Assembly: GCA_038062895.1 (NCBI GenBank)
Contig: JBBTWJ010000014.1
Span: 4,036-68,035 of the forward strand
From: Patescibacteria group bacterium
GTDB lineage: Bacteria; Patescibacteriota; Microgenomatia; UBA10105; UBA927
DNA: 64,000 nt
Direction: 5' to 3'
The translations under genes were made by a program, and so were the position numbers. This document shows, one piece after another, positions 1 to 9,364 of this stretch (positions within the stretch are counted from its first letter, which is position 1; each line of letters starts with the position of its first letter). The notes beneath the pieces were generated by a model. That model did not search any database, was not told where the DNA came from, and was given only the letters and a program-made list of their open reading frames with translations.

Positions 1-1114
1 CATTTTTTAAGTCGGCAAACTCAGATATATTGGTTTTCAGCTTAAGGCTTTGGGAATTTTGGCTTTTGTCTATGGCAAAAAAGCAGAAAGCCTGACTGAT
101 GTCTATGAAAAACTCATTCTTTTCCGGAATTGTATGGATAGTAGACAAGCGATAGTCATTAAGCATTCTATTTCTAAGCTCATAACTTTGTTTATCGCTT
201 AATAAGGTTGAGGGTATTAATAGACCCACTTTACCATCTTTTTTAGTGTAATTTTCAACTATTTCTTCAACAAATAATTTATATAAATTTAATGTTCCAT
301 TATTGTATTTATATGTATGATTCTTTCTTATAAAGTTTAATAATTTTGTTATTTGTTTTTTATAATTATCAGTTTCGTCATTGTATTTATTTGAATTAGC
401 CTTAAGTAGTTTGTAGGGTGGGTTTGTAAGAACAATGTCAAAACCATCTGTTCTATTAAAGATGTGTCGTGGGTCATTTTTAACGATAAAATCTTTATTA
501 AGATCAAAAAGGAGGTCGCCTATGTAGAGGTTCTTTGGCGGTATTGTTACTTTGAAAGTATATTTTGCGTTAATATAATGAGGAATTATTTGACTAAGTA
601 AAGAAATAGCTTCTGCATCTATATCAGCAAAATACATATTGTTGATAATTGTTTGTGCGTCTGCGTTTGTAGAATGTTTTTGATTGTCAAAAATATTATC
701 TAAATATGCTAAAGCGAAAATTCCAATACCCGAACAGGGTTCTAAGAAGCTTTTATTTAATGGGTTTATTGTCTTGTCATAAAGACTCACCGTTTCGTCT
801 GTAATTAACCTCGCAATATAATAATCGGTATAATAGATTCCGTTATGTTTTCTTTCATCTGTGCTTGAAAGTTTAACTTTCTCTTTTTTTTTCTGATGAG
901 TAAGACCTATGAGTTCAACGATCGCAATGTAGTTTAAATCTTTATTACTTGTTGCAAAATCGGATAGTAAGGTACTAAATGTCAATTCATTATTAATAGT
1001 CTTGTTTTTTAGAATTTCTAGTAAATTACTTATGATTACATCGTCATTAATGCCGTGTGAGGTAAGAGAGTTATAAATTGAGTATATTTTTCTTGTATTA
1101 CTTTGGGTAGGCAT
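1..1114 (-). CDS. N6-adenine DNA methyltransferase, N-terminal part (gene runs off window start)
   Basis: Own minus-strand translation from ATG at 1114: MPTQSNTRKIYS... It contains an EPCSGIGIF AdoMet motif (FxGxG) and a TNPPY catalytic motif (motif IV of amino-MTases). Not in the ORF track because it is truncated by the window edge. About 30% GC. Confidence 0.7.
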   Translation of the reverse strand, partial: MPTQSNTRKIYSIYNSLTSHGINDDVIISNLLEILKNKTINNELTFSTLLSDFATSNKDLNYIAIVELIGLTHQKKKEKVKLSSTDERKHNGIYYTDYYIARLITDETVSLYDKTINPLNKSFLEPCSGIGIFALAYLDNIFDNQKHSTNADAQTIINNMYFADIDAEAISLLSQIIPHYINAKYTFKVTIPPKNLYIGDLLFDLNKDFIVKNDPRHIFNRTDGFDIVLTNPPYKLLKANSNKYNDETDNYKKQITKLLNFIRKNHTYKYNNGTLNLYKLFVEEIVENYTKKDGKVGLLIPSTLLSDKQSYELRNRMLNDYRLSTIHTIPEKNEFFIDISQAFCFFAIDKSQNSQSLKLKTNISEFADLKN

Positions 1115-1143
1115 ATATTTATTATATTTGAAATCCTTAACAA

Positions 1144-1737
1144 TTATCCGTTTCTTATCAATCCTACAAATTTACCTCGTACTTCTAATTTTTGTGGTTC
1201 AATAACGAGATAATTCTTGTTTCTTGGTTCTAAGGTAATTTTCCCACCTCTTTTTCTAAAAACTTTTAAAGTTGCTCCATCTTCAGTAATAGCAACTATA
1301 ACTTCTCCGTTATTGGCTGTCATTTGGTGTTTAATCAAAACGATATCTTTATCAAGTATTCCCATATCGATCATGCTGTCGCCTTTAATCTTAAGGGCAT
1401 AATGCGGATACCTTGAGTCAATTTCAATATTTGAAGGAACTTGGATTTCTTCCGGGTTTTCAATTGGTTCGATAGGTTTTCCAGCAGCAATATAACCTAA
1501 TAAGGGGATATTGTGCTGGTTGGTTATTGGGGAAATACCCCTTGCTTTGTTTGCATTTTTAGTCAGATATCCTTTCTCTTCAAGCTCATTTACATAATAT
1601 TGTGCCGTACTTAAATTCTTACCTAAATAGTTGGCTATTTCATGAAGAGAGGGGGAAAACCCCTTTTCTCTCAAAAAAGAGTTAATAAAATCTAAGGTGT
1701 TTTTTTGTTTTCCAGTTAATGGTTGTATATCTTGCAT
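1144..1737 (-). CDS. lexA: LexA-type repressor (S24 peptidase with N-terminal wHTH)
   Basis: 197 aa. N-terminal LexA DNA-binding fold, an Ala-Gly cleavage site (YIAAGKP), a GDSM serine motif and a downstream KR. AT-rich. Sits 30 bp upstream of the MTase gene on the same strand. Confidence 0.85.
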   Translation of the reverse strand: MQDIQPLTGKQKNTLDFINSFLREKGFSPSLHEIANYLGKNLSTAQYYVNELEEKGYLTKNANKARGISPITNQHNIPLLGYIAAGKPIEPIENPEEIQVPSNIEIDSRYPHYALKIKGDSMIDMGILDKDIVLIKHQMTANNGEVIVAITEDGATLKVFRKRGGKITLEPRNKNYLVIEPQKLEVRGKFVGLIRNG

Positions 1738-1803
1738 ATATTATAAATATATGATAAATTTACAGTAAAGTCAAGAGTGAATTTTAAGGGGGTGAAATTA
1801 AAT

Positions 1804-2037
1804 ATGGCAAAACAAAATCAACATGTAGTACCGCATCAAGGTGATTGGGCAGTCAGAGGAGAAGGAAACTCAAGAGTTACTTCAATTCACCCGACACAAT
1901 CTTCGGCTTATGAAGTAGCAAGGAAAATTGCAATTAACAATAGGTCTGAGGTTGTTACTCACCGTCCTGATGGAACAATTAGGGATAAGGATAGTTTTGG
2001 GAACGATCCGTGTCCACCAAAAGACAAGAAGAATTAA
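1804..2037 (+). CDS. DUF2188 family small protein
   Basis: MAKQNQHVVPHQGDWAVRGEGNSRVTSIHPTQSSAYEVARKIA...DGTIRDKDSFGNDP matches the DUF2188 pattern. Strong SD (AAGGGGGTGA) 8 nt before the ATG at 1804. Confidence 0.7.
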   Translation: MAKQNQHVVPHQGDWAVRGEGNSRVTSIHPTQSSAYEVARKIAINNRSEVVTHRPDGTIRDKDSFGNDPCPPKDKKN

Positions 2038-2044
2038 TTCCAAT

Positions 2045-2962
2045 ATGGAAAATTTAATTAATAAAAAGGTAAAAATCGGAAGAAATGATCTCTATCCTTG
2101 TGGAAGCGGAAGGAAATATAAAAAGTGTTGTATGGTAAAAGAACCTACAGAGCAGTTGTTACCTGTAAAAGAGGTAAAAACAGTTATTAGCAATACGTAT
2201 GGGAATCTTTTTGATTTCAACAAAGAGTTAAAAAGTGTCGTAGATGGTATTTTTAAGAAAAAATGTAAGGCTGATGAATCCAAAACAGCATTTGCATCGT
2301 TTACCATAGGGAAAGCTTACAAAACACATGAAGCAATAATGATTTTATGTTCTGAAGGTTATGGTGAAGATGCCGCAATATTAGTCAGATCACTTTTTGA
2401 ACTATTAATAACTTTACTTTATATCTTAAAAGACTCTACAGACGAACGAGCCAACAGATATTATTCCTACGACTGGATTCTTCGCAAAAAAATGTTCGAC
2501 TACGCAAAAACTAAGCCAGAAATTGCAAAGGAAATGCAAGATAGAGCAACTAACCCTAAGATAGGCGATACAAACATTGAGGAAGTAATGAAACAGGCTA
2601 AAGTTGTGCAGGAAAAATATAAATATAACAATAAAGGTTGGTCGGATAAGTCAATTTACGATATGGCATCAGAGGTAGGGCGTATGGACCATTACAAGAC
2701 TATTTATGCTCTTCAGTCCCAAATTGCTCATACTGCAGTTAGAGTTATAAATGATTACGTTAAAGATAGCGGTTCAGGCTTAAATATAATGGTTGGTCCT
2801 GGTTTAAACTGGATTGAAAACGACCTAGTTGCGTTATTTGACTTCTATTATTCAATTGTTGGCGAGTGCGACAAACTATTTGAATTTGGTTATGCTAAGA
2901 AACTTGACGATATAGCTAAACGCTATCTTGCCCATGTGGGGGAAATCAATAATAAAACTTAA
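2045..2962 (+). CDS. SEC-C motif domain protein with uncharacterised C-terminal domain (possibly DUF5677-like)
   Basis: Starts MENLINKK.. with a SEC-C metal-binding motif (CGSGRKYKKCC) near the N-terminus. The internal ATG at 2045 is preferred over the track start at 1928, which overlaps the upstream gene. Confidence 0.65.
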   Translation: MENLINKKVKIGRNDLYPCGSGRKYKKCCMVKEPTEQLLPVKEVKTVISNTYGNLFDFNKELKSVVDGIFKKKCKADESKTAFASFTIGKAYKTHEAIMILCSEGYGEDAAILVRSLFELLITLLYILKDSTDERANRYYSYDWILRKKMFDYAKTKPEIAKEMQDRATNPKIGDTNIEEVMKQAKVVQEKYKYNNKGWSDKSIYDMASEVGRMDHYKTIYALQSQIAHTAVRVINDYVKDSGSGLNIMVGPGLNWIENDLVALFDFYYSIVGECDKLFEFGYAKKLDDIAKRYLAHVGEINNKT

Positions 2963-3005
2963 TTTGAAACAACCACCAAAAGGATCATCTTTTGAAACTA
3001 TAGAA

Positions 3006-3524
3006 ATGACTAAAGTAGACTTTTTTCAGGCATCACTTAATAAGCTACATGATGACGTAGGAACAATTCTCAGGTTACTTGATGAACACAATAAGCAATC
3101 TGCTCGTAAGGTAGGTTTTTGGGCAAGTATGAGGTTAATTATGCCAATTATTGAGGCGGTGGCAAATGTTACCGGAGAAAAACCCCAAGAGTTTCTTAAA
3201 AATCACTTAGAAGTTACTGCTCCTTACTTAACCTGGGATTTATTTAGACATTCACTTATCCACGGGGACTATATGCAACACGCAAAATACCAATCAAAAG
3301 AGATTGGTTGGGGTATCGCATTTATTGGAGTAGGCCATGTTATTACCAGTGGACACATAGGCATTGACGCTATACACCTTTACAACAAACTCAATGAATA
3401 TATAACCGCTGAAGTGGCAAAAAATGACCAAGCAGTCGTCAAAATTGAAGTAGGAGTTTTATATAAAAATCCAAAGCAGGAAGTTGTTGACGAGTTTAAT
3501 AAACTATGCGGTAAGGGTTTATAA
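3006..3524 (+). CDS. hypothetical protein (third gene of AT-rich operon)
   Basis: ORF 2928..3524. The internal start MTKVDFF at 3006 avoids overlap with the upstream gene. No recognisable motif. Confidence 0.45.
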   Translation: MTKVDFFQASLNKLHDDVGTILRLLDEHNKQSARKVGFWASMRLIMPIIEAVANVTGEKPQEFLKNHLEVTAPYLTWDLFRHSLIHGDYMQHAKYQSKEIGWGIAFIGVGHVITSGHIGIDAIHLYNKLNEYITAEVAKNDQAVVKIEVGVLYKNPKQEVVDEFNKLCGKGL

Positions 3525-3727
3525 TTGTTGGGATTGCTGAAGTGTAGTTTCTGGGTCAACACATAATTCAGCTCAGTCTACCGTACGAAACGTATCCCAG
3601 TTACTGAGCCTGTTGGCACTTAATATACTAAAATCGTGCTTGCAACCGTACATGCAACCTATGCAGGCAACCTGCCGGGTAGTTTAGATTTAAACCTCTC
3701 TCTTTATTAAATATCTGTTTTTTAACA

Positions 3728-3751
3728 TGCTCAAATTATACTCCCCTCACG
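3728..3751 (-). promoter_or_regulatory. copy 1 of conserved promoter-like motif GGGGAGTATAATTTGAGC (TATAAT -10 box)
   Basis: The same 20-24 bp motif recurs at 5117-5140 and 6020-6038. This copy lies in a 330-bp gene-free region. Confidence 0.4.
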
Positions 3752-3872
3752 CTCCCTTCGATAGACTTCCCTCGAAAAGACTCGGGACAGGCAGGGTAAA
3801 CAGACTCAGTGTGAACACTTCAGCAAGTTTATGGTGAGCCAAGCCGAACCAATCAGGGTAAATGATCGGGAT

Positions 3873-4778
3873 TTATTTCAATCTTTTTTTCTCTTCCGGC
3901 TCATGGAGAAAGTTTTGTTTGGAGACGACTGAACGGCCGAGGCGTTTCTCAAGCTTTTTTCTTGCTCCTCCGGCTATATCGCCTCCGGCCTTGGCATCTG
4001 CTTTTAACTTGGGCACACCTTGGGAATCCTCATTCCGGTGAATTTCCGTCGTAGCGCGTTCGCCTAACATGTTAAAAATCAATTCAAAATCATCCATGTG
4101 GTCACGTAAATTCTCGCGTCGCAGACCCTTTAGTTTTTTATATTCACTCGGCGTGACCCCAAACGTGGCTTTAGAAATTTCTGCGGTCAGTATTTCATAA
4201 TCTCTGTCTTCTCTTGCTCCACGCTTCTGCCACTGGTCGGTCAACTCTTCCCGAATCGCAATCCCACGCATCCGTTTCTCTATCCAATCATCTGAATACC
4301 CTTTTAGCTTGTAGAGCATTCGAGTTCTCTTGGTGCCTAACTCCGGGTTTTCTATCTCCTGCACCCGCTCGTACCCCACGCGGGCTAGCCACCGTTTAAA
4401 AGGCTCAGCTTTTGGGGATGGTATGGATTGGATGAGTCGAAAAATACCTTCCGTATGCCAACAATAGGCTTTTTGTACTCCTCCCGGGGTTTCAATATCC
4501 AACATAAGGGGTGGTACAAATTGTACCCCTCCTTTGTCAGTCAATTTTGCTAGCTCCCCATCTCTCTCCTTGAGCCGTTTGAAGTATTGCGCTGGATCAC
4601 GAGAATTAGCTAACGCTTCGATGACATCATTCACCGAAAACCACCATTCATTGTTATAAATAGTTTTCCTGATCTTTTTGCCTTTAAACAGAGCGATTTT
4701 TGTTGCATCCATAAACAAATAAATACCTAATGAGTCAAAGTATACTCCACCTTCTGTAGGGACACGCCTCATGCTCAA
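3873..4778 (-). CDS. Bro-N domain / DinD-like (DNA-damage-inducible protein D family) protein
   Basis: 301 aa. N-terminal Bro-N-like segment (FKGKKIRKTIYNNEWWFSVNDVIEAL). The C-terminal segment KKLKGLRRENLRDHMDDFELIFNMLGE resembles E. coli DinD (KGLKKNQKILDHMGSTELAANLF). Confidence 0.65.
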   Translation of the reverse strand: MSMRRVPTEGGVYFDSLGIYLFMDATKIALFKGKKIRKTIYNNEWWFSVNDVIEALANSRDPAQYFKRLKERDGELAKLTDKGGVQFVPPLMLDIETPGGVQKAYCWHTEGIFRLIQSIPSPKAEPFKRWLARVGYERVQEIENPELGTKRTRMLYKLKGYSDDWIEKRMRGIAIREELTDQWQKRGAREDRDYEILTAEISKATFGVTPSEYKKLKGLRRENLRDHMDDFELIFNMLGERATTEIHRNEDSQGVPKLKADAKAGGDIAGGARKKLEKRLGRSVVSKQNFLHEPEEKKRLK

Positions 4779-4795
4779 AATATGATTTATATTCG

Positions 4796-5110
4796 TTACT
4801 GTATCCTTCCTGTGGCGGCTAAGAAAAGAACGATGGGGATACTCATCGTATACACCAATCCACCTATACCAAACATGACGAGTAAAATTACCAGAATTGA
4901 ATTTTTATACACAACGCTCATTGTTATGGGAAACTTCACCAACGTGGCGTACGTCCGACGACAGAGGGTAACAATAGAAACATTGAAAATTCTTTTCGAT
5001 ACCTTGTCAGCAGTGAGATAGGCTCCGTACAGCGCAGAACACACGTCATATACAAACTCTTTCCAAAAATATTTCCTCACCCGGATGGTAATACGTACTG
5101 CGCTATCCAT
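4796..5110 (-). CDS. small membrane protein (2 C-terminal TM helices), hypothetical
   Basis: Track ORF 4796..5122 begins with TTG. The first ATG (MDSAVR...) is at 5110. A hydrophobic C-terminal segment follows. Preceded by motif copy 2. Confidence 0.35.
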   Translation of the reverse strand: MDSAVRITIRVRKYFWKEFVYDVCSALYGAYLTADKVSKRIFNVSIVTLCRRTYATLVKFPITMSVVYKNSILVILLVMFGIGGLVYTMSIPIVLFLAATGRIQ

Positions 5111-5116
5111 ATACTT

Positions 5117-5140
5117 ACTCAAAGTATACTCTCCTCACGC
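5117..5140 (-). promoter_or_regulatory. copy 2 of conserved promoter-like motif (GAGGAGAGTATACTTTGAG)
   Basis: Lies 7-30 nt upstream of the ATG at 5110 on the minus strand. Confidence 0.4.
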
Positions 5141-5187
5141 CAGGGAAGGGCATGGTACATCCCCCACGCGGCAAATAGCTATGAAAT

Positions 5188-6006
5188 TTATTTCAATTTT
5201 TTGATGGAGGGATTACCTAGTAGAGATTGCATTTGGGAAATGGCGGTTTGGTTTAGTTGAACTAATCTAACGGATTGGGAAATTTCTTGCCTGATGAGCT
5301 GGGCATTGAGACCCTCGAGGTTGGCCAGTACTACAAGTTGGGTGACGTCGGCATAGTCGCGGATATTACCATCTTTGCCCGGATTTTCATCCCGCCACAA
5401 TTTGGCTGTTTTGCCAAACAACGCCATGTTGAGTACATCAGCCTCACTGGCATAAACAATACTTGTTGTTTGTTGCGAAACAGAGGGAGGAACCAGGTGT
5501 TCTTTGATCGCATCGGTGTGGATTTTATAGTTAATCTTAGTCAGAGTCCTTTTCACATCCCAACCAAGCCGCAATTTTTCACTCTCTTCATTTTTTAGTC
5601 TCTGAAACTCTTTGATGAGATAAATTTTAAATTCAGGGCTTATCCACATCCCAAATTCAAAGGCAATATCTTTATGGGCATATGTTCCACCATATCGTCC
5701 GGCGGTTGCCTTGAGACCAACAGCATTCGTCTTTTTGACCCATTCTTTTACACTTATCTTGTAGTTATTCAAGCCTGCCTGACTTTTAATTGTGGCAAAT
5801 TCGCCATAATTAAAATTTGGATTATGTAACTTTTCCCATATACCCAAAAATTCAACGGTATTTCTATTTCTGAGCCAATCGGAAATAAAAAAATCACCAT
5901 CTTTTGCTTTCAACATGTCGGTAAGCGAAATAAAATCATCACCCCCAACATTTAAAATAATGCCGATTTGACTGCCCTGAACTATAATTTGTTTACTTTT
6001 CGTCAT
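5188..6006 (-). CDS. KilA-N domain protein (phage antirepressor-type DNA-binding protein)
   Basis: 272 aa. The N-terminal 100 aa match KilA-N/APSES-like proteins (QIGIILNVGGDDFISLTDML...). The C-terminal half is conserved in KilA-N domain-containing proteins (YAHKDIAFEFGMWISPEFKIYLIKEF). Confidence 0.7.
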   Translation of the reverse strand: MTKSKQIIVQGSQIGIILNVGGDDFISLTDMLKAKDGDFFISDWLRNRNTVEFLGIWEKLHNPNFNYGEFATIKSQAGLNNYKISVKEWVKKTNAVGLKATAGRYGGTYAHKDIAFEFGMWISPEFKIYLIKEFQRLKNEESEKLRLGWDVKRTLTKINYKIHTDAIKEHLVPPSVSQQTTSIVYASEADVLNMALFGKTAKLWRDENPGKDGNIRDYADVTQLVVLANLEGLNAQLIRQEISQSVRLVQLNQTAISQMQSLLGNPSIKKLK

Positions 6007-6019
6007 ATTGCAATAATTA

Positions 6020-6038
6020 GCTCAAATTATACTCCCCC
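6020..6038 (-). promoter_or_regulatory. copy 3 of conserved promoter-like motif (GGGGGAGTATAATTTGAGC), 22 nt upstream of KilA-N ATG
   Basis: Identical core to copy 1. No SD between the motif and the ATG. Confidence 0.45.
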
Positions 6039-6064
6039 TACCTACTAAACACGATCTAACATCA

Positions 6065-6418
6065 TTATGACTCTATGACCACTCCCTCCAGGACGTCCAT
6101 ATCGATGAAGGGGTACAGGAGCCTCAGATTTTTGGTATTGGAACGGTAAAAAAGATCCGCAACGACCCCGATAAACGGGAGGAGCCCCAGGAGATAATCC
6201 AAAAAGATATGCCAACCCATCGTCCAATAAATCCGCGACGGGACCTTCAATTGATACGCAATCCAGAAGAGATAGCAGGAGATACCTGCGCCAATCATGC
6301 TTCCGAACCCCGGCAAGATGTCCAGGATCGGATCTATCCCAAACCGGATACCAAAAAAGTTAAATTTGGTATCCATGAGAGTCACCAGACGCTGAGCGAA
6401 CTCAATATGTGATTTCAT
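6065..6418 (-). CDS. DUF4112 family membrane protein
   Basis: 117 aa, two TM helices, GIDPILDILPGFG ... GLLPFIGVVADLFYRSNTKN pattern typical of DUF4112. Confidence 0.55.
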   Translation of the reverse strand: MKSHIEFAQRLVTLMDTKFNFFGIRFGIDPILDILPGFGSMIGAGISCYLFWIAYQLKVPSRIYWTMGWHIFLDYLLGLLPFIGVVADLFYRSNTKNLRLLYPFIDMDVLEGVVIES

Positions 6419-7302
6419 TGAGGACTATACCCCTTCCCAATCTTCCACACGCCTTTTTCACGAAACGCAGGGATCGTCTGTCGACGGGCAGCGTTAAATA
6501 TGGCCGGAGCACCAAGATTATGCTCTTTGACATATGTGGCCAGAGTAACTATTTCACCACCTTGTAAATAGGTAATACGTTTATGCAACGACTCACATAT
6601 TGCCCGCGTAAGAACACGTTCCGTTGTGCTGGTCTTTTTGTCATCACGATATTGCGTAAATCCCCGATAATATTCCTGCTTTTCTTTATCACGGATGATA
6701 ATATTCGGAAAACCTATTCGTTGGAGTTGAAGATTGATCAGCGCTCTTCCTATGCGGCCATTACCGTCATTAAATGGATGAATCGTTTCAAACTCCAGAT
6801 GAAAACGTGCGATAGCATCAAGAGGATATAGCGTCAGATTACCCGTATATTCCTCAAGTAACCGATCCATCAACCGATCGATATGTTCCGGCGCAGGTGC
6901 GACAAAAGCTCCCACACGTACATATTCATTTGCGCTGCGAAACCGTCCGGCTATTTCATCATTTATTCCTACGAGGAGCATACCGTGAAGCGTACAAATA
7001 AATTCTTTGGATAACTCACGATCTTTTGATAACGCTCGTATAAAAGCCACAACACGGGCTAAATTTTTAGCCTCATACACTTCACGAACGCTCACCTGCC
7101 GGGATACTTCCATTTCCAGTAATATTTTTTCCGTTTCCGGAAGGCTGAGGGTCGAGTTTTCAATCGCGTTGGAGTTGTAGACACTTTCTGCGATTTCCGC
7201 CTCATCGATGAGGGTAAGGAGTGCGTCTTTGCCTATCCGCAACCGGTCAAATTGAGTCTTGATTATTCGTATTTTATCGGTGATCAATCGCGATGTAGCC
7301 AT
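6415..7302 (-). CDS. Fic family protein (AMPylase/phosphocholine transferase fold)
   Basis: Canonical Fic motif HPFNDGNGRIGRAL in a 295-aa protein. Confidence 0.85.
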   Translation of the reverse strand: MATSRLITDKIRIIKTQFDRLRIGKDALLTLIDEAEIAESVYNSNAIENSTLSLPETEKILLEMEVSRQVSVREVYEAKNLARVVAFIRALSKDRELSKEFICTLHGMLLVGINDEIAGRFRSANEYVRVGAFVAPAPEHIDRLMDRLLEEYTGNLTLYPLDAIARFHLEFETIHPFNDGNGRIGRALINLQLQRIGFPNIIIRDKEKQEYYRGFTQYRDDKKTSTTERVLTRAICESLHKRITYLQGGEIVTLATYVKEHNLGAPAIFNAARRQTIPAFREKGVWKIGKGYSPQ

Positions 7303-7372
7303 ACTTCATATAATAGCATATTCACGGTGTTTTGTCAATTTACCGTGAATATGGATAAGAAATCGGCTCTAT

Positions 7373-7621
7373 TCACGGTATTTTGATGGTATACACCACG
7401 CCGCGGGTGGAACCCATTTTTTGTATAAATCCCGCCTTAGCAAGCTGCTTGAGGTCATAATGAAGCGTACTTGGTGGCACGAGCCGGAATTGCCGTGATA
7501 AAAACGCGAATGATACCATCTTATTTTCCCGTATCGTCGCCACGATCTCCTGACGCCGGGGAAACGGCGACGAGTGAGGCTGTATGGTTATTATGCGCTG
7601 CATGGTCGCTAGTGAATCCAT
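7373..7621 (-). CDS. winged-helix (DeoR-like HTH) DNA-binding protein upstream of fic
   Basis: 82 aa with HTH_DeoR-like helix (VSFAFLSRQFRLVPPSTLHYDLKQLAKAGFI). Confidence 0.5.
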   Translation of the reverse strand: MDSLATMQRIITIQPHSSPFPRRQEIVATIRENKMVSFAFLSRQFRLVPPSTLHYDLKQLAKAGFIQKMGSTRGVVYTIKIP

Positions 7622-7630
7622 GAGAACATA

Positions 7631-7680
7631 TTAGAAGATATTAGAAGATGTTGCAAGATGTTGCAAGATGTTGCAAGATA
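7631..7680. repeat. five tandem 10-bp repeats (TTAGAAGATA x2, TTGCAAGATG x3) in divergent promoter region
   Basis: Perfect 10-bp periodicity read directly from the sequence. Lies between the wHTH gene start (7621) and the MBL gene start (7729). Confidence 0.8.
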
Positions 7681-7728
7681 TCACATGATTATGGCAAACG
7701 GCGACAGGAATACGGTACACTAATAATA

Positions 7729-9078
7729 ATGAAAATTAAATTTCTCGGAGCGGCAGGGATGGTGACGGGATCTTCCTATATTCTCACATCCGGATCCGGA
7801 CAATCCATCCTAATCGATCTTGGATTATTTTTAGGCACTCCGGATATCAACAAGCTCAATGAACAACCGTACGCCTATGACTGCAGCCAATTAGCCGGTG
7901 CCGTCTTGACGCACGCCCATCTGGATCACTGTGGCAGGCTGCCGATACTCTTGCCCCAGGGCTACAAAGGAAATATCTGGATGACGAGGGCAACGGGCGA
8001 CCTGACGGAAATATCGTTACTGGACAGCGCAAAAATTGCAAAGGAGGGAGACCGCCGCCCCCTGTTTGATAAAGCGCTCGCCGAGCAAACCATCAAACGG
8101 TTTATGACCGTCGACTACCGTACTCCTGTTTCCATCGGCAACTTCACCGTTACGCTGCGTGACGCGGGCCATATCCTGGGATCAGCAATCTTGGAAATAG
8201 TGGATACCAAGCCAGACTCCGGGGTCAAAAAGGTCGTCTTCAGCGGTGATTTGGGCAATACGCCGGAGGACTTACTCGAAGAGACAGAGTACCTTGATAG
8301 TGCCGATTGCGTCGTCATGGAGTCCACCTACGGCGACCGGCTCCATCCTATCTCTTCTGCCGAAGTTGCCCTTGAGTCAGAAATACACAGTATCGAAGCC
8401 TCCGGCGGGACGCTTCTTATCCCGGCATTTGCACTGGACCGGACCCAGGAACTTTTGCACATGATCATGCACATGAAACAATCGGGGAAAATGGGAGCCG
8501 GCACACCGGTTTTTTTGGACAGTCCGATGGCCGAAAAAGCGACGCTCGTCTATGGGAAGTATCCGCAAATTTTTAATACCCATATCCGGGATGATTTCAA
8601 AACCGGAAATCCCTTCGGGTTTGCCGGACTTACCGTCGTTGCCACCAACCAACAAAGCGACGCGCTCTTTACGCTTACCGGACCCAAAGTCATCATCGCC
8701 GGAAGCGGCATGATGACCGGAGGAAGAATTCTCAACCTTGCGACCCATTTTCTGCCGATTGCTTCTACCCGGTTATTTATCGTGGGATATCAGGGCGAGG
8801 AGACGCTGGGACACAACATACTTGCCGGAAATAAACAGGTGTCCATCAACGGCATCACCGTCCCCGTCCGGGCGACGGTCAACGATACACAAGGGATGAG
8901 TTCTCATGCCGACCAGAAACAGCTCATCGCATGGCTGGGGCACATCAAGCAGGTACAAAAAGTCATCCTCACCCACGGCGAAGACGGACCGCGCAACGCA
9001 TTGGCTCAAAAAATATCAGAAGATTTGGGGTTTACTAATGTCTCCCTCCCGGTCCTCCATCAGGAAATACAACTATAA
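7729..9078 (+). CDS. MBL-fold metallo-hydrolase of the beta-CASP (RNA-metabolising) family
   Basis: THAHLDHCG motif II, beta-CASP arrangement and a C-terminal H motif. The true start MKIKFLGAAG is at 7729. Confidence 0.8.
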   Translation: MKIKFLGAAGMVTGSSYILTSGSGQSILIDLGLFLGTPDINKLNEQPYAYDCSQLAGAVLTHAHLDHCGRLPILLPQGYKGNIWMTRATGDLTEISLLDSAKIAKEGDRRPLFDKALAEQTIKRFMTVDYRTPVSIGNFTVTLRDAGHILGSAILEIVDTKPDSGVKKVVFSGDLGNTPEDLLEETEYLDSADCVVMESTYGDRLHPISSAEVALESEIHSIEASGGTLLIPAFALDRTQELLHMIMHMKQSGKMGAGTPVFLDSPMAEKATLVYGKYPQIFNTHIRDDFKTGNPFGFAGLTVVATNQQSDALFTLTGPKVIIAGSGMMTGGRILNLATHFLPIASTRLFIVGYQGEETLGHNILAGNKQVSINGITVPVRATVNDTQGMSSHADQKQLIAWLGHIKQVQKVILTHGEDGPRNALAQKISEDLGFTNVSLPVLHQEIQL

Positions 9079-9112
9079 CGTCACCAGCGCATCGTGCTAT
9101 ACTATAAGCTAC

Positions 9113-9364
9113 ATGAATGACATTGTGACGGTAGAAGAGGCCGCTATGTTTCTCCATAAACATCCGGGAACCATACGGCGGTGGATAGAAAGCAATAAAC
9201 TCAAAGCCCGGCATCTTTCCGCCGGCGGACACGGGATCTATGCGATACTCCGGATGGATCTTCTGGAATGTATGATCGCCGGGGATATAAAGGAAAAAGA
9301 AAAAATCAAACACGCGCCTACCCCTAAAGCCCTACCCGATCCACAAACCCAACTTCCGCTTTAA
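9113..9364 (+). CDS. helix-turn-helix (excisionase/MerR-like HTH_17) DNA-binding protein
   Basis: 83 aa from an internal ATG. VTVEEAAMFLHKHPGTIRRWIESNKLKA is a typical HTH_17 segment. Confidence 0.5.
   Translation: MNDIVTVEEAAMFLHKHPGTIRRWIESNKLKARHLSAGGHGIYAILRMDLLECMIAGDIKEKEKIKHAPTPKALPDPQTQLPL

What the first reader, a model, noticed from the sequence alone, without database searches (positions are those of the whole stretch)
3540..7650. Phage-type antirepressor / regulatory gene cluster (Bro-N/DinD-like, KilA-N, Fic, wHTH, DUF4112) continuing the island
Five consecutive minus-strand genes encode families typical of prophages and defence islands. A Bro-N/DinD-like protein belongs to a family that is a classic LexA-regulon member in E. 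coli. A KilA-N protein, a Fic enzyme with a small wHTH gene directly upstream, and a small membrane protein complete the set. Together with the LexA-like repressor at 1144-1737 this looks like a decayed prophage or an SOS-responsive accessory region, not core genome.
Basis: partly seen in the sequence, partly recalled or inferred. Interest (0 to 1): 0.55.

Follow-up and report, generated by a model that had tools for sequence, protein, structure and literature searches.

The report
Mosaic accessory island with self-regulated Fic
This stretch of a groundwater Patescibacteria genome is a patchwork of independently acquired accessory genes next to a restriction system, not a decayed prophage, and its clearest feature is a Fic enzyme gene that probably switches off its own promoter.

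Summary
Six minus-strand genes (not five) encode wHTH, Fic, DUF4112, KilA-N, a missed 104-aa membrane ORF, and a Bro-N/DinD-like protein.

- **Accessory, not prophage.** The region has three GC3 strata and sits beside a type IIS R-M block. The informative relatives lack most of it. No integrase, att repeats or structural genes appear in the roughly 12 kb of contig to its left or the 56 kb of window to its right.
- **No SOS link.** No known LexA box was found. The LexA gene belongs to the low-GC R-M block, 29 nt upstream of its methylases.
- **Fic needs no antitoxin.** It is class II, with its own inhibitory motif (S44xxxE48N). The wHTH ORF matches the C-terminal domain of a second Fic family.
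- **New detail.** This Fic family carries a conserved promoter with three GTGAAT half-sites in 68 of 75 loci. It has no conserved neighbour gene. Self-repression through its invariant C-terminal HTH-like tail is the likely mechanism, as shown for CccR.
- **Separate cassettes.** KilA-N, ORF104 and Bro-N each follow a lineage-specific element, GGAGTATAMTTTGA. Their families match untested PADLOC candidates.

Overall this is ordinary accessory DNA with one neat regulatory feature.

The parts
7628..7689 (-). Six tandem 10-bp units (CATCTTGCAA x3, then degenerate copies) between the wHTH82 start (7621) and the beta-CASP start (7729). This is a promoter-region repeat.
   Evidence: TRF finds period 10 and 6.2 copies (sequence). 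The same repeat array lies directly upstream of the full-length Fic-wHTH gene in L216 and, as a remnant, upstream of Fic in L044.
7373..7621 (-). wHTH82, an 82-aa free-standing winged-helix protein. Residues 16-80 match the C-terminal wHTH of ~330-aa Fic proteins.
   Evidence: 58% identity to residues 262-326 of L216 Fic329, E=3e-25. There are 165 representative homologues, many of them the C-terminus of 320-335-aa proteins; 7 of 10 sampled proteins of 178-347 aa carry a Pfam Fic domain. Against the L043 orthologue, 20 codons differ synonymously and 7 non-synonymously over 49 codons. It has no [ST]xxxE[GN] motif.
7310..7379 (-). Fic promoter-operator. Half-sites ACCGTGAATA (7379-7370, containing the wHTH82 stop codon) and TATTCACGGT (7351-7342); -35 TTGACA (7338-7333); third half-site ACCGTGAATAT (7328-7318) in the spacer; -10 TATTAT (7315-7310), 7 nt before the ATG.
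   Evidence: Promoter scan scores 11/12 (sequence). The architecture is conserved in 68 of 75 unique upstream regions of this Fic family, against a shuffle mean of 1.9 and maximum of 6. There are 3.1 half-sites per 130 nt against 0.29 in background.
6415..7302 (-). Class II Fic protein, 295 aa. Inhibitory motif S44-N-A-I-E48-N; active-site motif H175-PFNDGNGRIGR; invariant C-terminal HTH-like tail (residues ~249-288, ...NAARRQxIPAFREKGVWKI).
   Evidence: Pfam Fic 9.1e-22. Aligns with FICD/FIC-1, with SNAIEN on TVAIEGN. Motifs confirmed and invariant columns. PADLOC PDC-S04 1e-35 and SoFic 9e-32.
6065..6418 (-). DUF4112 small membrane protein, 117 aa. Its start overlaps the Fic stop by 4 nt (ATGA). 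GC3 is native-like (0.62).
   Evidence: Pfam 3.6e-25. Hydrophobic segment found; GC3. It is adjacent to Fic or beta-CASP in relatives L013, L014/15, L017 and L043, but in only 1 of 80 loci of the wider Fic family.
6016..6043 (-). Copy 1 of the -10-like element (AGGTAGGGGGAGTATAATTTGAGCTAAT), upstream of KilA-N.
5188..6006 (-). KilA-N protein, 272 aa, with a conserved helical C-terminal half. Matches PADLOC candidate PDC-S22.
   Evidence: Pfam KilA-N 1.8e-23. PDC-S22 8.6e-130, full length; phrog_2657. Homologues reach 72-86% identity across CPR, Nitrospirota and Margulisbacteria. About 52% identity in Staphylococcus phage EW and Streptococcus satellites, where the gene sits next to the integrase.
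5113..5140 (-). Copy 2 of the -10-like element (GCGTGAGGAGAGTATACTTTGAGTAAGT), upstream of ORF104.
4796..5110 (-). ORF104, a small protein with a conserved N-terminal half and a hydrophobic C-terminus.
   Evidence: Called as a gene in L001. No family hit. Homologues lie directly upstream of Bro-N in L216/L217 (E=6e-17) and in L014 (E=1e-13). Hydropathy.
4735..4748 (-). Copy 3 of the -10-like element (GGAGTATACTTTGA), 22 nt upstream of the Bro-N ATG at 4712.
   Evidence: The same element (GCGTGAGGGGAGTATAATTTGAC) precedes the 92.8%-identical Bro-N gene in L216.
3873..4712 (-). Bro-N / DinD-like protein, 279 aa. Matches PADLOC candidate PDC-S13.
   Evidence: Pfam Bro-N 2.2e-12. PDLC04920 5e-102, full length; phrog_15286 1.8e-78. 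Link to DinD. Homologues reach 80-92% identity across CPR, Planctomycetota, Omnitrophica and Bipolaricaulota.
3725..3752 (-). Copy 4 of the element (GCGTGAGGGGAGTATAATTTGAGCATGT). It is an orphan: it points into 200 nt of non-coding DNA at the boundary with the low-GC block.
   Evidence: The downstream 3525-3724 is not unusually structured (z = -0.5) and has no Rfam match. The compositional boundary falls here.

Best explanation
Window 3540-7650 is the middle of a mosaic accessory locus of at least 15 kb. It lies at the end of a contig from a Patescibacteria (CPR) MAG; the closest named protein relatives are Gottesmanbacteria and Roizmanbacteria. It resembles a defence island. It is neither a prophage nor one multi-gene system, but several separately promoted units of different ages.

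**(1) The Fic unit.** This is a class II Fic AMP-transferase. Its active-site motif is intact, and it is held in check by an inhibitory helix in the same polypeptide (shown by sequence).
- Its sigma70-type promoter is overlapped by three GTGAAT half-sites. These travel with the gene across many hosts (shown).
- No neighbouring gene is conserved (shown).
- The protein therefore most likely represses its own promoter through its invariant C-terminal HTH-like tail (inferred), as demonstrated for the Fic-DNA-binding protein CccR. This would keep a potentially toxic enzyme at a low level.
- In this lineage a small membrane protein, DUF4112, is translationally coupled to it.

**(2) wHTH82.** This is a free-standing copy of the wHTH that forms the C-terminus of a second Fic family. 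It keeps that gene's 10-bp-repeat promoter region. It probably arose by loss of the Fic domain (inferred). It is not an antitoxin.

**(3) Three single-gene cassettes.** KilA-N (PDC-S22), ORF104 and Bro-N/DinD-like (PDC-S13) each sit behind a copy of the -10-like element GGAGTATAMTTTGA.
- KilA-N and Bro-N each combine an N-terminal DNA-binding domain with a helical C-terminal region. The two C-terminal regions share a possible motif.
- I take them to be stand-alone DNA-binding proteins that interfere with invading phage or mobile DNA, like genes in the lysogeny modules of temperate phages. This step has low confidence and is untested.

**(4) The junction.** An orphan fourth copy of the element marks the boundary with a recently acquired low-GC block. 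That block holds an Alw26I-type IIS restriction-modification system, a LexA-family repressor, DUF2188 and DUF5677.
For: **Gene content:**

**Composition.** GC3 is 0.27-0.30 for LexA through unk198. It is 0.39-0.48 for KilA-N, Fic, Bro-N and ORF104. It is 0.57-0.62 for DUF4112, wHTH82 and beta-CASP (profiles). The junctions between strata are recovered in independent assemblies.

**R-M block:** Eco57I-type and C5 methylases plus RE_Alw26IDE.

**Fic.**
- The inhibitory motif aligns with that of FICD; both motifs are confirmed.
- Promoter-operator architecture is present in 68/75 upstream regions against a shuffle maximum of 6. There are 3.1 half-sites per 130 nt against 0.29 in background, and a sigma70 promoter in 70/75.
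- The variant half-site GTTAAT changes at all three sites together in 6 of 7 loci. Residue 269 is L or I in 10/10 such loci.
- No conserved neighbour exists in about 50 loci with adequate flanks; the largest neighbour cluster covers 6 loci.
- The C-terminal tail is invariant.
- Precedent: CccR (PMC9755527).

**DUF4112.** It overlaps Fic by 4 nt and is adjacent to Fic in L013, L014 and L043. L043 has a second copy of the operator in front of it.

**wHTH82:**

**-10-like element.** Four copies lie within 2.3 kb, all on the minus strand. No other copy with 0-1 mismatch exists in the 64 kb, and no shuffle reached five matches at up to 2 mismatches. It also precedes Bro-N in L216 and DUF4112 in L014.

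**Independence of the genes.**
- KilA-N and Bro-N never occur together in 94 viral loci.
- Bro-N homologues sit alone among housekeeping genes in L220-L223.
- KilA-N homologues sit next to R-M, helicase, RhuM or STAND-type genes.

**Absence from relatives:**
Against: - The DNA-binding nature of the Fic tail is not established. The best profile hit is the HTH of YbaQ at E=0.32, there is no Pfam hit, and I made no structure model of it.
- The association between residue 269 and operator type could simply reflect shared ancestry.
- A host factor common to all these hosts, binding GTGAAT, is not excluded.
- The far (left) flank of the island is never seen. Every assembly breaks about 400-760 nt beyond the restriction gene, some inside a Gp49/HigB-like gene. 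An integrase further out therefore cannot be excluded.
- Only two or three relatives give an informative synteny comparison, and beta-CASP has no conserved context in genomes at 69% identity or less.
- PADLOC PDC families are untested candidates. PDC-S04 showed no defence in the one native-host test found.
- Bro-N homologues among housekeeping genes argue that these are not always island genes.
- L216 shows a partly parallel array (Fic, Fic-wHTH, ORF99, Bro-N). Some linkage among these genes is therefore real.
- Structure models of KilA-N and Bro-N were poor (pLDDT 57 and 45), so their C-terminal domains remain uncharacterised.
Confidence: 0.6

Rival explanations
1. The region is a decayed prophage or phage-satellite remnant. 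Its lysogeny-module genes (an S24 repressor, plus KilA-N and Bro-N 'antirepressors') survived while the rest was deleted.
For: - KilA-N homologues (~52% identity) sit next to the integrase in Staphylococcus phage EW and in Streptococcus Javan satellites, just after the repressor or its ImmA-like protease gene.
- Both families occur on IMG/VR viral contigs (63 and 31 loci), and several Bro-N hits lie within a few kb of a contig end.
- An autocleavable LexA/CI-type repressor lies nearby.
- wHTH82 looks like a truncated gene.
Against: - No integrase, att-like repeats, or structural, lysis or replication genes appear anywhere in the contig on either side.
- The region has three distinct GC3 strata, not one.
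- An R-M system sits inside the block.
- Both families are rare in isolated phages: 17 and 4 of 50,697 records. They are abundant in cellular genomes, and Bro-N can be solitary among housekeeping genes.
- The repeated promoter element is specific to this lineage, not linked to phage copies of the genes.
Confidence: 0.12
2. The region is an SOS-responsive regulon. The adjacent LexA represses Bro-N/DinD-like, KilA-N and Fic, and DNA damage induces them.
For: - LexA at 1144-1737 passes the NCBIfam lexA equivalog cutoff (155.8 against 110.95). By eye it keeps the Ala-Gly cleavage site and the Ser/Lys dyad (translation).
- E. coli dinD is a classic LexA-regulon gene (established knowledge), and the Bro-N protein belongs to the same candidate family.
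Against: - No match to the E. coli, Gram-positive, cyanobacterial, alpha-proteobacterial, Bdellovibrio or Verrucomicrobia LexA-box consensus was found in window 1-8000. The lexA promoter and the island's other intergenic regions share no palindrome.
- The cassettes share a non-palindromic -10-like element instead.
- Fic has its own operator set, which is conserved in genomes lacking this LexA.
- LexA has the GC3 of the R-M block (0.27) and lies 29 nt upstream of its methylases.
Confidence: 0.08
3. wHTH82 and Fic form a two-gene toxin-antitoxin module. The small upstream protein neutralises Fic and represses the operon.
For: - The genes have the same orientation and a 70-nt gap, and the wHTH82 stop codon lies inside the first operator half-site.
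- The same arrangement recurs in L043 and L073.
- The wHTH family is fused to Fic domains elsewhere, which is Rosetta-stone-type evidence of a functional link.
- The wHTH coding sequence is under purifying selection.
Against: - Fic has the inhibitory motif in cis, the class II arrangement. wHTH82 has no [ST]xxxE[GN] motif.
- Only 2 of 80 loci of the Fic family have a wHTH82 homologue nearby by tblastn. The related neighbour cluster covers 6 of about 50-55 loci. The operator is present in 68 of 75.
- In L014 the operator is intact although the wHTH gene is absent.
Confidence: 0.1
4. The six genes form one co-functioning multi-gene defence system or operon.
For: - All six have the same orientation with short gaps.
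- L216 has a partly parallel array: Fic, Fic-wHTH, an ORF104 homologue, Bro-N, and an R-M system nearby.
- A shared promoter element precedes three of the genes.
Against: - There are separate promoter-like elements before Fic, KilA-N, ORF104 and Bro-N.
- GC3 differs between the genes.
- KilA-N and DUF4112 are missing from the L216 array.
- Co-occurrence is otherwise rare: 1-2 of 80 Fic loci and 0 of 94 viral loci.
Confidence: 0.1

Closest known systems
[quoted passage not shown]
   Same: [quoted passage not shown] That is the mechanism inferred here from the conserved three-site operator.
   Different: - CccR is a secreted T6SS effector that AMPylates FtsZ. Nothing here suggests secretion.
- The present family is shorter (295 aa). 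I did not compare it directly with CccR or identify CccR among the PDB matches.
- Its HTH is not statistically established.
- Binding to the promoter is inferred, not shown.
Class II Fic proteins: FICD/HYPE, C. elegans FIC-1, SoFic, Bacteroides BT_2513 (3CUC)
   Same: - It is their best sequence relative among solved structures, at E=7.6e-22.
- The inhibitory (S/T)xxxE(G/N) helix lies N-terminal of the Fic core in the same chain.
- It has the canonical HPFx(D/E)GNGRxxR motif.
- It matches the PADLOC SoFic model at 9e-32.
   Different: - It lacks the TPR and membrane anchor of FICD and the Fic_N plus long wHTH of SoFic.
- It has a distinct invariant tail (NAARRQxIPAFREKGVWKI) and a dedicated operator.
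- Its target and activity are unknown.
E. coli DinD (DNA damage-inducible protein D) and PADLOC PDC-S13
   Same: It has an N-terminal Bro-N domain and a related C-terminal region. DinD hits this protein's PADLOC model at 2e-16, and both fall in PDC-S13.
   Different: - It matches a different sub-model (PDLC04920, against PDLC04919 for DinD).
- Pairwise similarity is not significant, and there is no NCBIfam hit.
- There is no evidence of LexA control here.
- DinD's reported RecA-filament inhibition (my recollection of the literature) is untested for this family.
PADLOC PDC-S22 and phrog_2657: KilA-N proteins of Staphylococcus phage EW (ORF014) and Streptococcus Javan satellites
   Same: It is a full-length match (8.6e-130 and 4.8e-57; ~52% identity to the phage copies) to a single stand-alone gene.
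   Different: In the phages and satellites the gene lies next to the integrase. Here there is no integrase or phage backbone. The function is untested everywhere.
Class I Fic toxin-antitoxin pairs (VbhT/VbhA, FicT/FicA)
   Same: A small gene lies directly upstream of a Fic gene.
   Different: In class I pairs the defining inhibitory motif lies on the small protein. Here it lies on Fic itself, and the small protein is a wHTH without the motif.

Membership tests
Fic/Fido AMP-transferases, class II (classification of Engel et al. 2012, from my knowledge) | Active-site motif HxFx(D/E)GN(G/K)RxxR | tested here: met
   HPFNDGNGRIGR at residues 175-186. The motif is invariant in 33 homologues. Pfam Fic 9.1e-22.
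Fic/Fido AMP-transferases, class II | Inhibitory motif (S/T)xxxE(G/N) on a helix N-terminal of the Fic core, in the same polypeptide | tested here: met
   SNAIEN at residues 44-49. It aligns with TVAIEGN of FICD/FIC-1 and is invariant in the family.
Fic/Fido AMP-transferases, class II | AMPylation (or de-AMPylation) activity on a protein target | not testable with these tools
   This needs biochemistry.
Class I Fic toxin-antitoxin (small antitoxin carrying the inhibitory motif) | A separate small upstream protein with (S/T)xxxE(G/N) | tested here: not met
   wHTH82 has no such motif; the nearest stretch is A28-T-I-R-E32-N33. A wHTH82 homologue lies near only 2 of 80 family loci.
Autorepressing Fic-DNA-binding proteins (CccR type) | [quoted passage not shown] | tested here: inconclusive
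   The tail is invariant. The best profile match is the HTH of YbaQ at E=0.32, and there is no Pfam hit.
Autorepressing Fic-DNA-binding proteins (CccR type) | The protein binds operators in its own promoter | not testable with these tools
   Indirect support only. A three-half-site operator is conserved in 68/75 loci, there is no conserved neighbour gene, and the half-site variants co-vary.
PADLOC candidates PDC-S04, PDC-S13 and PDC-S22 | A full-length match to the candidate's HMM | tested here: met
   1e-35, 5e-102 and 8.6e-130 respectively.
PADLOC candidates PDC-S04, PDC-S13 and PDC-S22 | Embedded within BREX, DISARM or type I R-M systems, the criterion by which the candidates were found | tested here: not met
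   Here the genes lie beside a type IIS R-M block, not inside it. The KilA-N and Bro-N genes are about 2-5 kb from its nearest methylase gene, which starts at window 1114. The criterion is described in 10.1101/2024.01.29.577857.
PADLOC candidates PDC-S04, PDC-S13 and PDC-S22 | Protection against phage | not testable with these tools
   The candidates are untested. PDC-S04 was negative in one native-host test.
Prophage or phage satellite | Integrase and flanking att direct repeats | tested here: not met
   No integrase was found among the Pfam-annotated genes of record positions 1-21 kb. No flanking direct repeats were found. The only tRNA is 35 kb away. The left flank is cut by the contig end.
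Prophage or phage satellite | Structural, lysis or replication genes | tested here: not met
   None among the called genes.
LexA (SOS) regulon | A LexA box in the promoters of member genes | tested here: inconclusive
   No match to six known consensus types in window 1-8000, and no shared palindrome. The box used by this LexA is unknown.
DinD family | Bro-N domain plus the DinD C-terminal region | tested here: met
   Both proteins have Bro-N. DinD matches model PDLC04920 at 2e-16 over residues 122-250. Pairwise BLASTP gives E=0.095.

The most novel reading that the evidence does not exclude
The 295-aa Fic-HTH family may be a self-contained, single-gene, toxin-antitoxin-like unit.

In this reading:
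- enzyme activity is gated by the cis inhibitory helix;
- transcription is gated by the protein's own tail binding a three-site operator that moves with the gene between phyla;
- the free-standing wHTH and DUF4112 are lineage-specific add-ons, namely a trans-acting domain split off from a second Fic family and a co-translated membrane partner or target.

If this unit proved to be an anti-phage or stress switch, it would be one of the commonest accessory regulators in CPR genomes.
Probability: 0.4. Interest if true: 0.45.

Novelty: new member of a known kind. Interest (0 to 1): 0.3.

Why it matters
For genome annotation, it shows that 'phage antirepressor'-type labels plus a nearby LexA do not make a prophage or an SOS island. 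The cluster here is a layered accessory hotspot next to a restriction system.

For biology, the useful product is a concrete, testable regulatory model for a very common but unstudied Fic family of CPR bacteria. The model names a three-half-site operator, its exact coordinates, and a candidate binder.

The analysis also documents that the KilA-N (PDC-S22) and Bro-N/DinD-like (PDC-S13) families are 72-92% identical across distant phyla. That pattern points to frequent horizontal transfer under strong constraint. These families would be sensible first choices for testing the untested PADLOC candidates.

Tried and rejected
- **Synteny via beta-CASP.** My single genome-contig scan returned 14 loci at 69% identity or less. 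None shared flanking genes on either side, so beta-CASP is not a stable anchor. Only L017 was informative.
- **Presence/absence within the source population.** All contigs carrying the identical Fic, beta-CASP or LexA show the same neighbours. No polymorphism was seen.
- **att-like repeats at the island edges.** None found.
- **Structure prediction.** The KilA-N and Bro-N models had pLDDT 57 and 45, because the alignments of 72-92% identical sequences were too shallow. Foldseek on the KilA-N model gave nothing significant; the best hit was DdrC at E=0.05 with TM 0.22.
- **Profile searches of PDB.** Alignments A1, A2 and A4 gave no significant hits.
- **A shared C-terminal domain.** For KilA-N against Bro-N, hhalign gave E=0.002 but probability of only 13%. 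Comparisons with RhuM were not significant. I treat this as a lead only.
- **The element as a ribosome-binding site plus TTG start.** Rejected for GGAGTATAMTTTGA, because the TTG is in frame with the downstream gene in only one of the three gene-linked copies.
- **The element as a gene-linked motif.** It is absent upstream of KilA-N and Bro-N homologues in 1.5 Mb of other loci, so it is lineage-specific.
- **A structured RNA after the orphan element.** Folding gave z = -0.5 and there was no Rfam hit.
- **The divergent HTH_17 gene as operator binder.** It sits next to Fic in L216 but is absent from the 80 metagenome loci.
- **Literature.** I found no functional data for PDC-S13, PDC-S16 or PDC-S22.

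Full report
**Source and setting**

The window is part of contig CAYHMG010000004.1 (74,350 bp) of MAG GCA_964357735.1, from Hainich groundwater. Window position 1 corresponds to record position 4036. Identical copies of the region occur in independent assemblies of several samples from the same site. The junctions described below are therefore not assembly artefacts.

The closest named protein relatives are Candidatus Gottesmanbacteria and Roizmanbacteria, and some records are named only 'Patescibacteria group'. The organism is a CPR bacterium, probably of the Microgenomates group.

**Check of the observation**

The minus strand of 3540-7650 carries six ORFs, not five.

| Gene | Coordinates | Size | Evidence |
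|---|---|---|---|
| wHTH82 | 7373-7621 | 82 aa | weak HTH_20 only |
| Fic | 6415-7302 | 295 aa | PF02661, 9.1e-22 |
| DUF4112 | 6065-6418 | 117 aa | 3.6e-25; 4-nt overlap with the Fic stop |
| KilA-N | 5188-6006 | 272 aa | 1.8e-23 |
| ORF104 | 4796-5110 | 104 aa | no family; hydrophobic C-terminus |
| Bro-N | 3873-4712 | 279 aa | 2.2e-12 |

- The Bro-N start is the ATG at 4712. This matches the 279-aa NCBI-called protein and the start of the PADLOC profile alignment.
- The beta-CASP gene on the other strand most likely starts at 7729.
- 'DinD-like' is fair at the level of architecture. E. coli DinD has a Bro-N domain. It is the type of PADLOC PDC-S13 model PDLC04919 (2e-121), and it hits this protein's own model PDLC04920 at 2e-16 over its C-terminal half. 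Pairwise BLASTP is not significant.

**What surrounds it**

To the left, the contig continues as follows:
- an unknown 198-aa gene;
- DUF5677 with a SEC-C motif;
- DUF2188 (PADLOC PDC-S16, 2e-35);
- a LexA-family repressor (TIGR00498, 155.8 bits against a cutoff of 110.95);
- 29 nt further and in the same orientation, an Eco57I-type methylase and a C5 methylase;
- a convergent RE_Alw26IDE endonuclease.

From my knowledge of the Alw26I/Eco31I/Esp3I systems, an adenine methylase paired with a cytosine methylase is what such type IIS systems use.

All the assemblies shown that reach the restriction gene stop about 400-760 nt beyond it. At least three of them end inside a Gp49/HigB-like toxin gene, so the far flank is never seen.

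To the right lie beta-CASP, an HTH_17 gene, DUF2130 and housekeeping-type genes at about 51% GC.

**Composition shows layers, not one element**

| Genes | GC3 |
|---|---|
| LexA, DUF2188, DUF5677, unk198 | 0.27-0.30 |
| KilA-N, Fic, Bro-N, ORF104 | 0.39-0.48 |
| DUF4112, wHTH82, beta-CASP | 0.57-0.62 |

The last group matches the native flank. The low-GC block runs from the restriction gene to about window 3550.

No integrase, no att-like direct repeats and no nearby tRNA were found. No phage structural, lysis or replication genes were found either.

**Comparison with relatives**

- Genomes whose Fic is 84-87% identical (L013, L014/L015, L043, L044) keep Fic. Where the contig is long enough, they also keep DUF4112 (74-88% identical). 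There the pair sits next to PFOR-Lon-beta-lactamase genes.
- L017 is the closest beta-CASP relative, at 69%. It has beta-CASP flanked by DUF4112 (66%) and by a different, SoFic-like Fic, beside the same Lon-PFOR genes.
- None of these relatives has KilA-N, Bro-N or the low-GC block.
- At the corresponding position L014 has other accessory genes: a Doc-like Fic, an ORF104 homologue, GIY-YIG, Mrr and an AAA_14 ATPase.

Fic, DUF4112 and beta-CASP therefore form a lineage-resident neighbourhood at a variable hotspot, and the remainder is cargo. The test is limited to two or three informative relatives. Beta-CASP has no conserved context in more distant genomes.

**The Fic unit**

The protein aligns best with FICD and C. 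elegans FIC-1 (E=7.6e-22). Its SNAIEN (residues 44-49) falls on their inhibitory TVAIEGN, and HPFNDGNGRIGR (175-186) is the canonical active site. This makes it a class II Fic that needs no separate antitoxin.

Thirty-three homologues at 62-91% identity, from many CPR groups and one Bacteroidota MAG, keep three things invariant: both motifs and a C-terminal tail...NAARRQxIPAFREKGVWKI.

Upstream of Fic lies a strong sigma70-type promoter: TTGACA, 17 nt, TATTAT, at 7338-7310.
- An inverted repeat, ACCGTGAATA-N18-TATTCACGGT, lies just upstream of the -35 box.
- A third ACCGTGAATAT sits in the promoter spacer.

- The same architecture is present in 68 of 75 distinct upstream regions. Shuffled controls gave a mean of 1.9 and a maximum of 6.
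- There are 3.1 half-sites per 130 nt, against 0.29 in 484 kb of flanking DNA.
- A sigma70 promoter is present in 70 of 75.
- In a minority of loci the half-site is GTTAAT. It then changes at all three sites together in 6 of 7 loci.
- In the 10 loci classed as GTTAAT-type, residue 269, at the start of the presumed recognition helix, is always L or I. The other loci have F, T, S or L there.
- Clustering of all ORFs within 1.5 kb on either side, in about 50 loci with adequate flanks, found no conserved neighbour. The largest cluster covers 6 loci.

The parsimonious reading is that the protein binds its own operator. [quoted passage not shown]

Two caveats apply. The HTH nature of the tail is not statistically supported: the best profile hit is the HTH of YbaQ at E=0.32, and there is no Pfam hit. 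The correlation at residue 269 may also be phylogenetic.

**DUF4112**

In this genome DUF4112 is translationally coupled to Fic. In L043 it is separated from Fic by a peroxiredoxin-like gene and has a second copy of the GTGAAT operator in front of it. In L014 it follows the other promoter element instead. The linkage is confined to this lineage: only 1 of 80 loci of the wider Fic family has it.

**wHTH82**

wHTH82 has 165 representative homologues. Many of the best 150 are the C-terminal ~65 residues of proteins of about 320-335 aa. Of ten such proteins I checked, seven (all those of 223-347 aa) have a Pfam Fic domain.

L216 is a 455-kb contig from another genome. It encodes such a Fic-wHTH protein (329 aa) whose residues 262-326 are 58% identical to wHTH82 (E=3e-25). 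Directly upstream of its start codon is the same 10-bp tandem repeat, (C/T)ATCTTGCAA, that lies upstream of wHTH82 at 7628-7689. A remnant of the repeat sits upstream of Fic in L044, where the wHTH gene is absent.

wHTH82 is thus most simply a Fic-wHTH gene that lost its Fic domain. The coding sequence has nevertheless been under purifying selection: 20 synonymous against 7 non-synonymous codon differences from L043. One caution is that the L043 copy is cut by the contig end and could be full length. A free-standing 77-aa wHTH also occupies the same position in the divergent locus L073.

wHTH82 has no inhibitory motif. A functional connection of this wHTH with Fic enzymes is supported, by domain fusion elsewhere.

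**The three cassettes**

An element with the core GGAGTATAMTTTGA, similar over up to 28 nt, occurs four times. All copies are on the minus strand, at 6043-6016, 5140-5113, 4748-4735 and 3752-3725. No other copy with 0-1 mismatch exists in the 64 kb, and no shuffle reached five matches at up to 2 mismatches.

The first three copies lie 12-26 nt upstream of the ATGs of KilA-N, ORF104 and Bro-N. The element contains TATAAT or TATACT. It is not a ribosome-binding site with a TTG start, because the frame fits in only one case. I read it as a -10-type promoter.

The element is not linked to these gene families in general; it is absent from 1.5 Mb of other loci. It does recur in related genomes, before DUF4112 in L014 and before the 92.8%-identical Bro-N in L216.

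The fourth copy points into 200 nt of non-coding DNA, exactly at the boundary with the low-GC block. That DNA is not unusually structured (z = -0.5) and has no Rfam match. I take this copy to be the orphaned promoter of a gene displaced when the low-GC block arrived.

**KilA-N and Bro-N families**

Both have thousands of homologues and are strikingly conserved.
- KilA-N reaches 72-86% identity in CPR, Nitrospirota and Margulisbacteria.
- Bro-N reaches 80-92% identity in CPR, Planctomycetota, Omnitrophica and Bipolaricaulota.

Both are full-length matches to PADLOC candidates. Those candidates were defined by 'guilt by embedding' in BREX, DISARM and type I R-M systems, and they are untested (10.1101/2024.01.29.577857).

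Contexts vary.
- KilA-N homologues lie beside MmeI-type R-M, PD-(D/E)xK and helicase genes (L034), beside RhuM (L035, L218), and beside an AAA_14-DUF4143 ATPase.
- In Staphylococcus phage EW and Streptococcus Javan satellites, KilA-N sits next to the integrase, just after the repressor or its ImmA-like protease gene. That is the slot where temperate elements usually carry host-protective cargo.
- Bro-N homologues can be solitary among housekeeping genes.
- Both occur on IMG/VR contigs (63 and 31 loci) but never together.
- They are rare in isolated phages: 17 and 4 of 50,697 records.

L216 shows a partly parallel array: Fic, Fic-wHTH, an ORF104 homologue and Bro-N, with an R-M gene nearby. ORF104 with Bro-N, and the two Fic families with each other, therefore do travel together to some extent.

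I could not characterise the C-terminal halves.
- The structure models were poor.
- No PDB relatives were found.
- The one lead is a possible shared motif, FG.T...[WY][RK]...N[IL]RD[YH].D..[QE]L. hhalign gives it E=0.002 but a probability of only 13%.

**LexA and SOS**

The LexA gene looks intact. However, its GC3 and its position tie it to the R-M block.

None of six known LexA-box consensus types occurs in window 1-8000, and the island's intergenic regions share no palindrome. This does not exclude an unknown box. There is no positive evidence that the Bro-N, KilA-N or Fic genes are SOS-controlled.

**Verdict**

The label 'phage-type regulatory genes, accessory' is acceptable. 'Decayed prophage', 'SOS-responsive' and 'wHTH antitoxin' are not supported.

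The region is an ordinary, layered accessory hotspot of a CPR genome. The one result of wider use is the conserved self-contained promoter-operator of a very common Fic family, together with its likely autoregulation.

Interest is low to moderate. The finding is a new member of known kinds.

Noticed in passing
window 1144-1737 (-) and L036:10001-15008: An intact LexA-family repressor (TIGR00498 above cutoff) lies 29 nt upstream of two methylases of an Alw26I-type IIS R-M system, in the same orientation. All have the same very low GC3 (0.27-0.30). A LexA-type autocleavable repressor heading an R-M methylase operon could couple methylase expression to DNA damage. This is unusual for R-M control proteins.
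   Followed up: partly
window 7628-7689: Six tandem 10-bp units place the palindromic hexamer TTGCAA once per helical turn, in the divergent region between wHTH82 and beta-CASP. The same array precedes a full-length Fic-wHTH gene in L216 (6560-6630), and a remnant precedes Fic in L044 (975-1005). The binding factor is unknown.
   Followed up: partly
window 3525-3752: An orphan fourth copy of the GGAGTATAATTTGAGC promoter-like element points into 200 nt of non-coding DNA at the GC boundary. The DNA contains three GGTTGC repeats. It has no significant fold and no Rfam hit. It may be the scar of a displaced gene.
   Followed up: yes
L036:15400-15771 (record positions 2-373, beyond the window start): Every assembly shown that reaches the restriction gene ends about 400-760 nt beyond it. 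At least three end inside a Gp49/HigB-like toxin gene. This suggests a repeat or a strain-variable junction there.
   Followed up: partly
window 5186-5202 and 3871-3887: KilA-N and Bro-N end with nearly the same 17 nt, AAAAA(A/G)ATTGAAATAAAT, which encodes K(K/R)LK-stop. This could be chance or a shared cassette boundary.
   Followed up: no
window 7648-7728: The beta-CASP ORF is called at 476 aa in the NCBI record, but the first 27 codons run through the 10-bp repeat array. Other gene calls and all homologues start at the MKIKFLGAAG methionine (7729).
   Followed up: yes
window 9038-9364 (+) and L216:5126-5377: A small HTH_17 gene overlaps the 3' end of beta-CASP. Its 49%-identical homologue lies divergently next to the Fic gene in L216. 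It may belong to the same mobile neighbourhood. It is absent from the 80 other Fic loci.
   Followed up: partly
window 1777-2037 (+), 1970-2962 (+), 2934-3524 (+): DUF2188 is a full-length match to PADLOC candidate PDC-S16 (2e-35). It sits in the low-GC block with a DUF5677 protein carrying a SEC-C zinc motif and an unknown 196-aa protein. They may form a further unit, and I did not examine them.
   Followed up: no
L043:1100-1660: In a close relative, a peroxiredoxin-like gene lies between Fic and DUF4112. A degenerate second copy of the Fic operator-promoter precedes DUF4112.
   Followed up: partly
L010 (MT838532.1, 5161 bp, human faecal 'Bacteriophage sp.'): An unverified fragment carries a Bro-N homologue (41% identity) flanked by two copies of a KilA-N N-terminal domain gene (943-1281 and 4391-4729). 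It is the only other locus seen with both families together.
   Followed up: no
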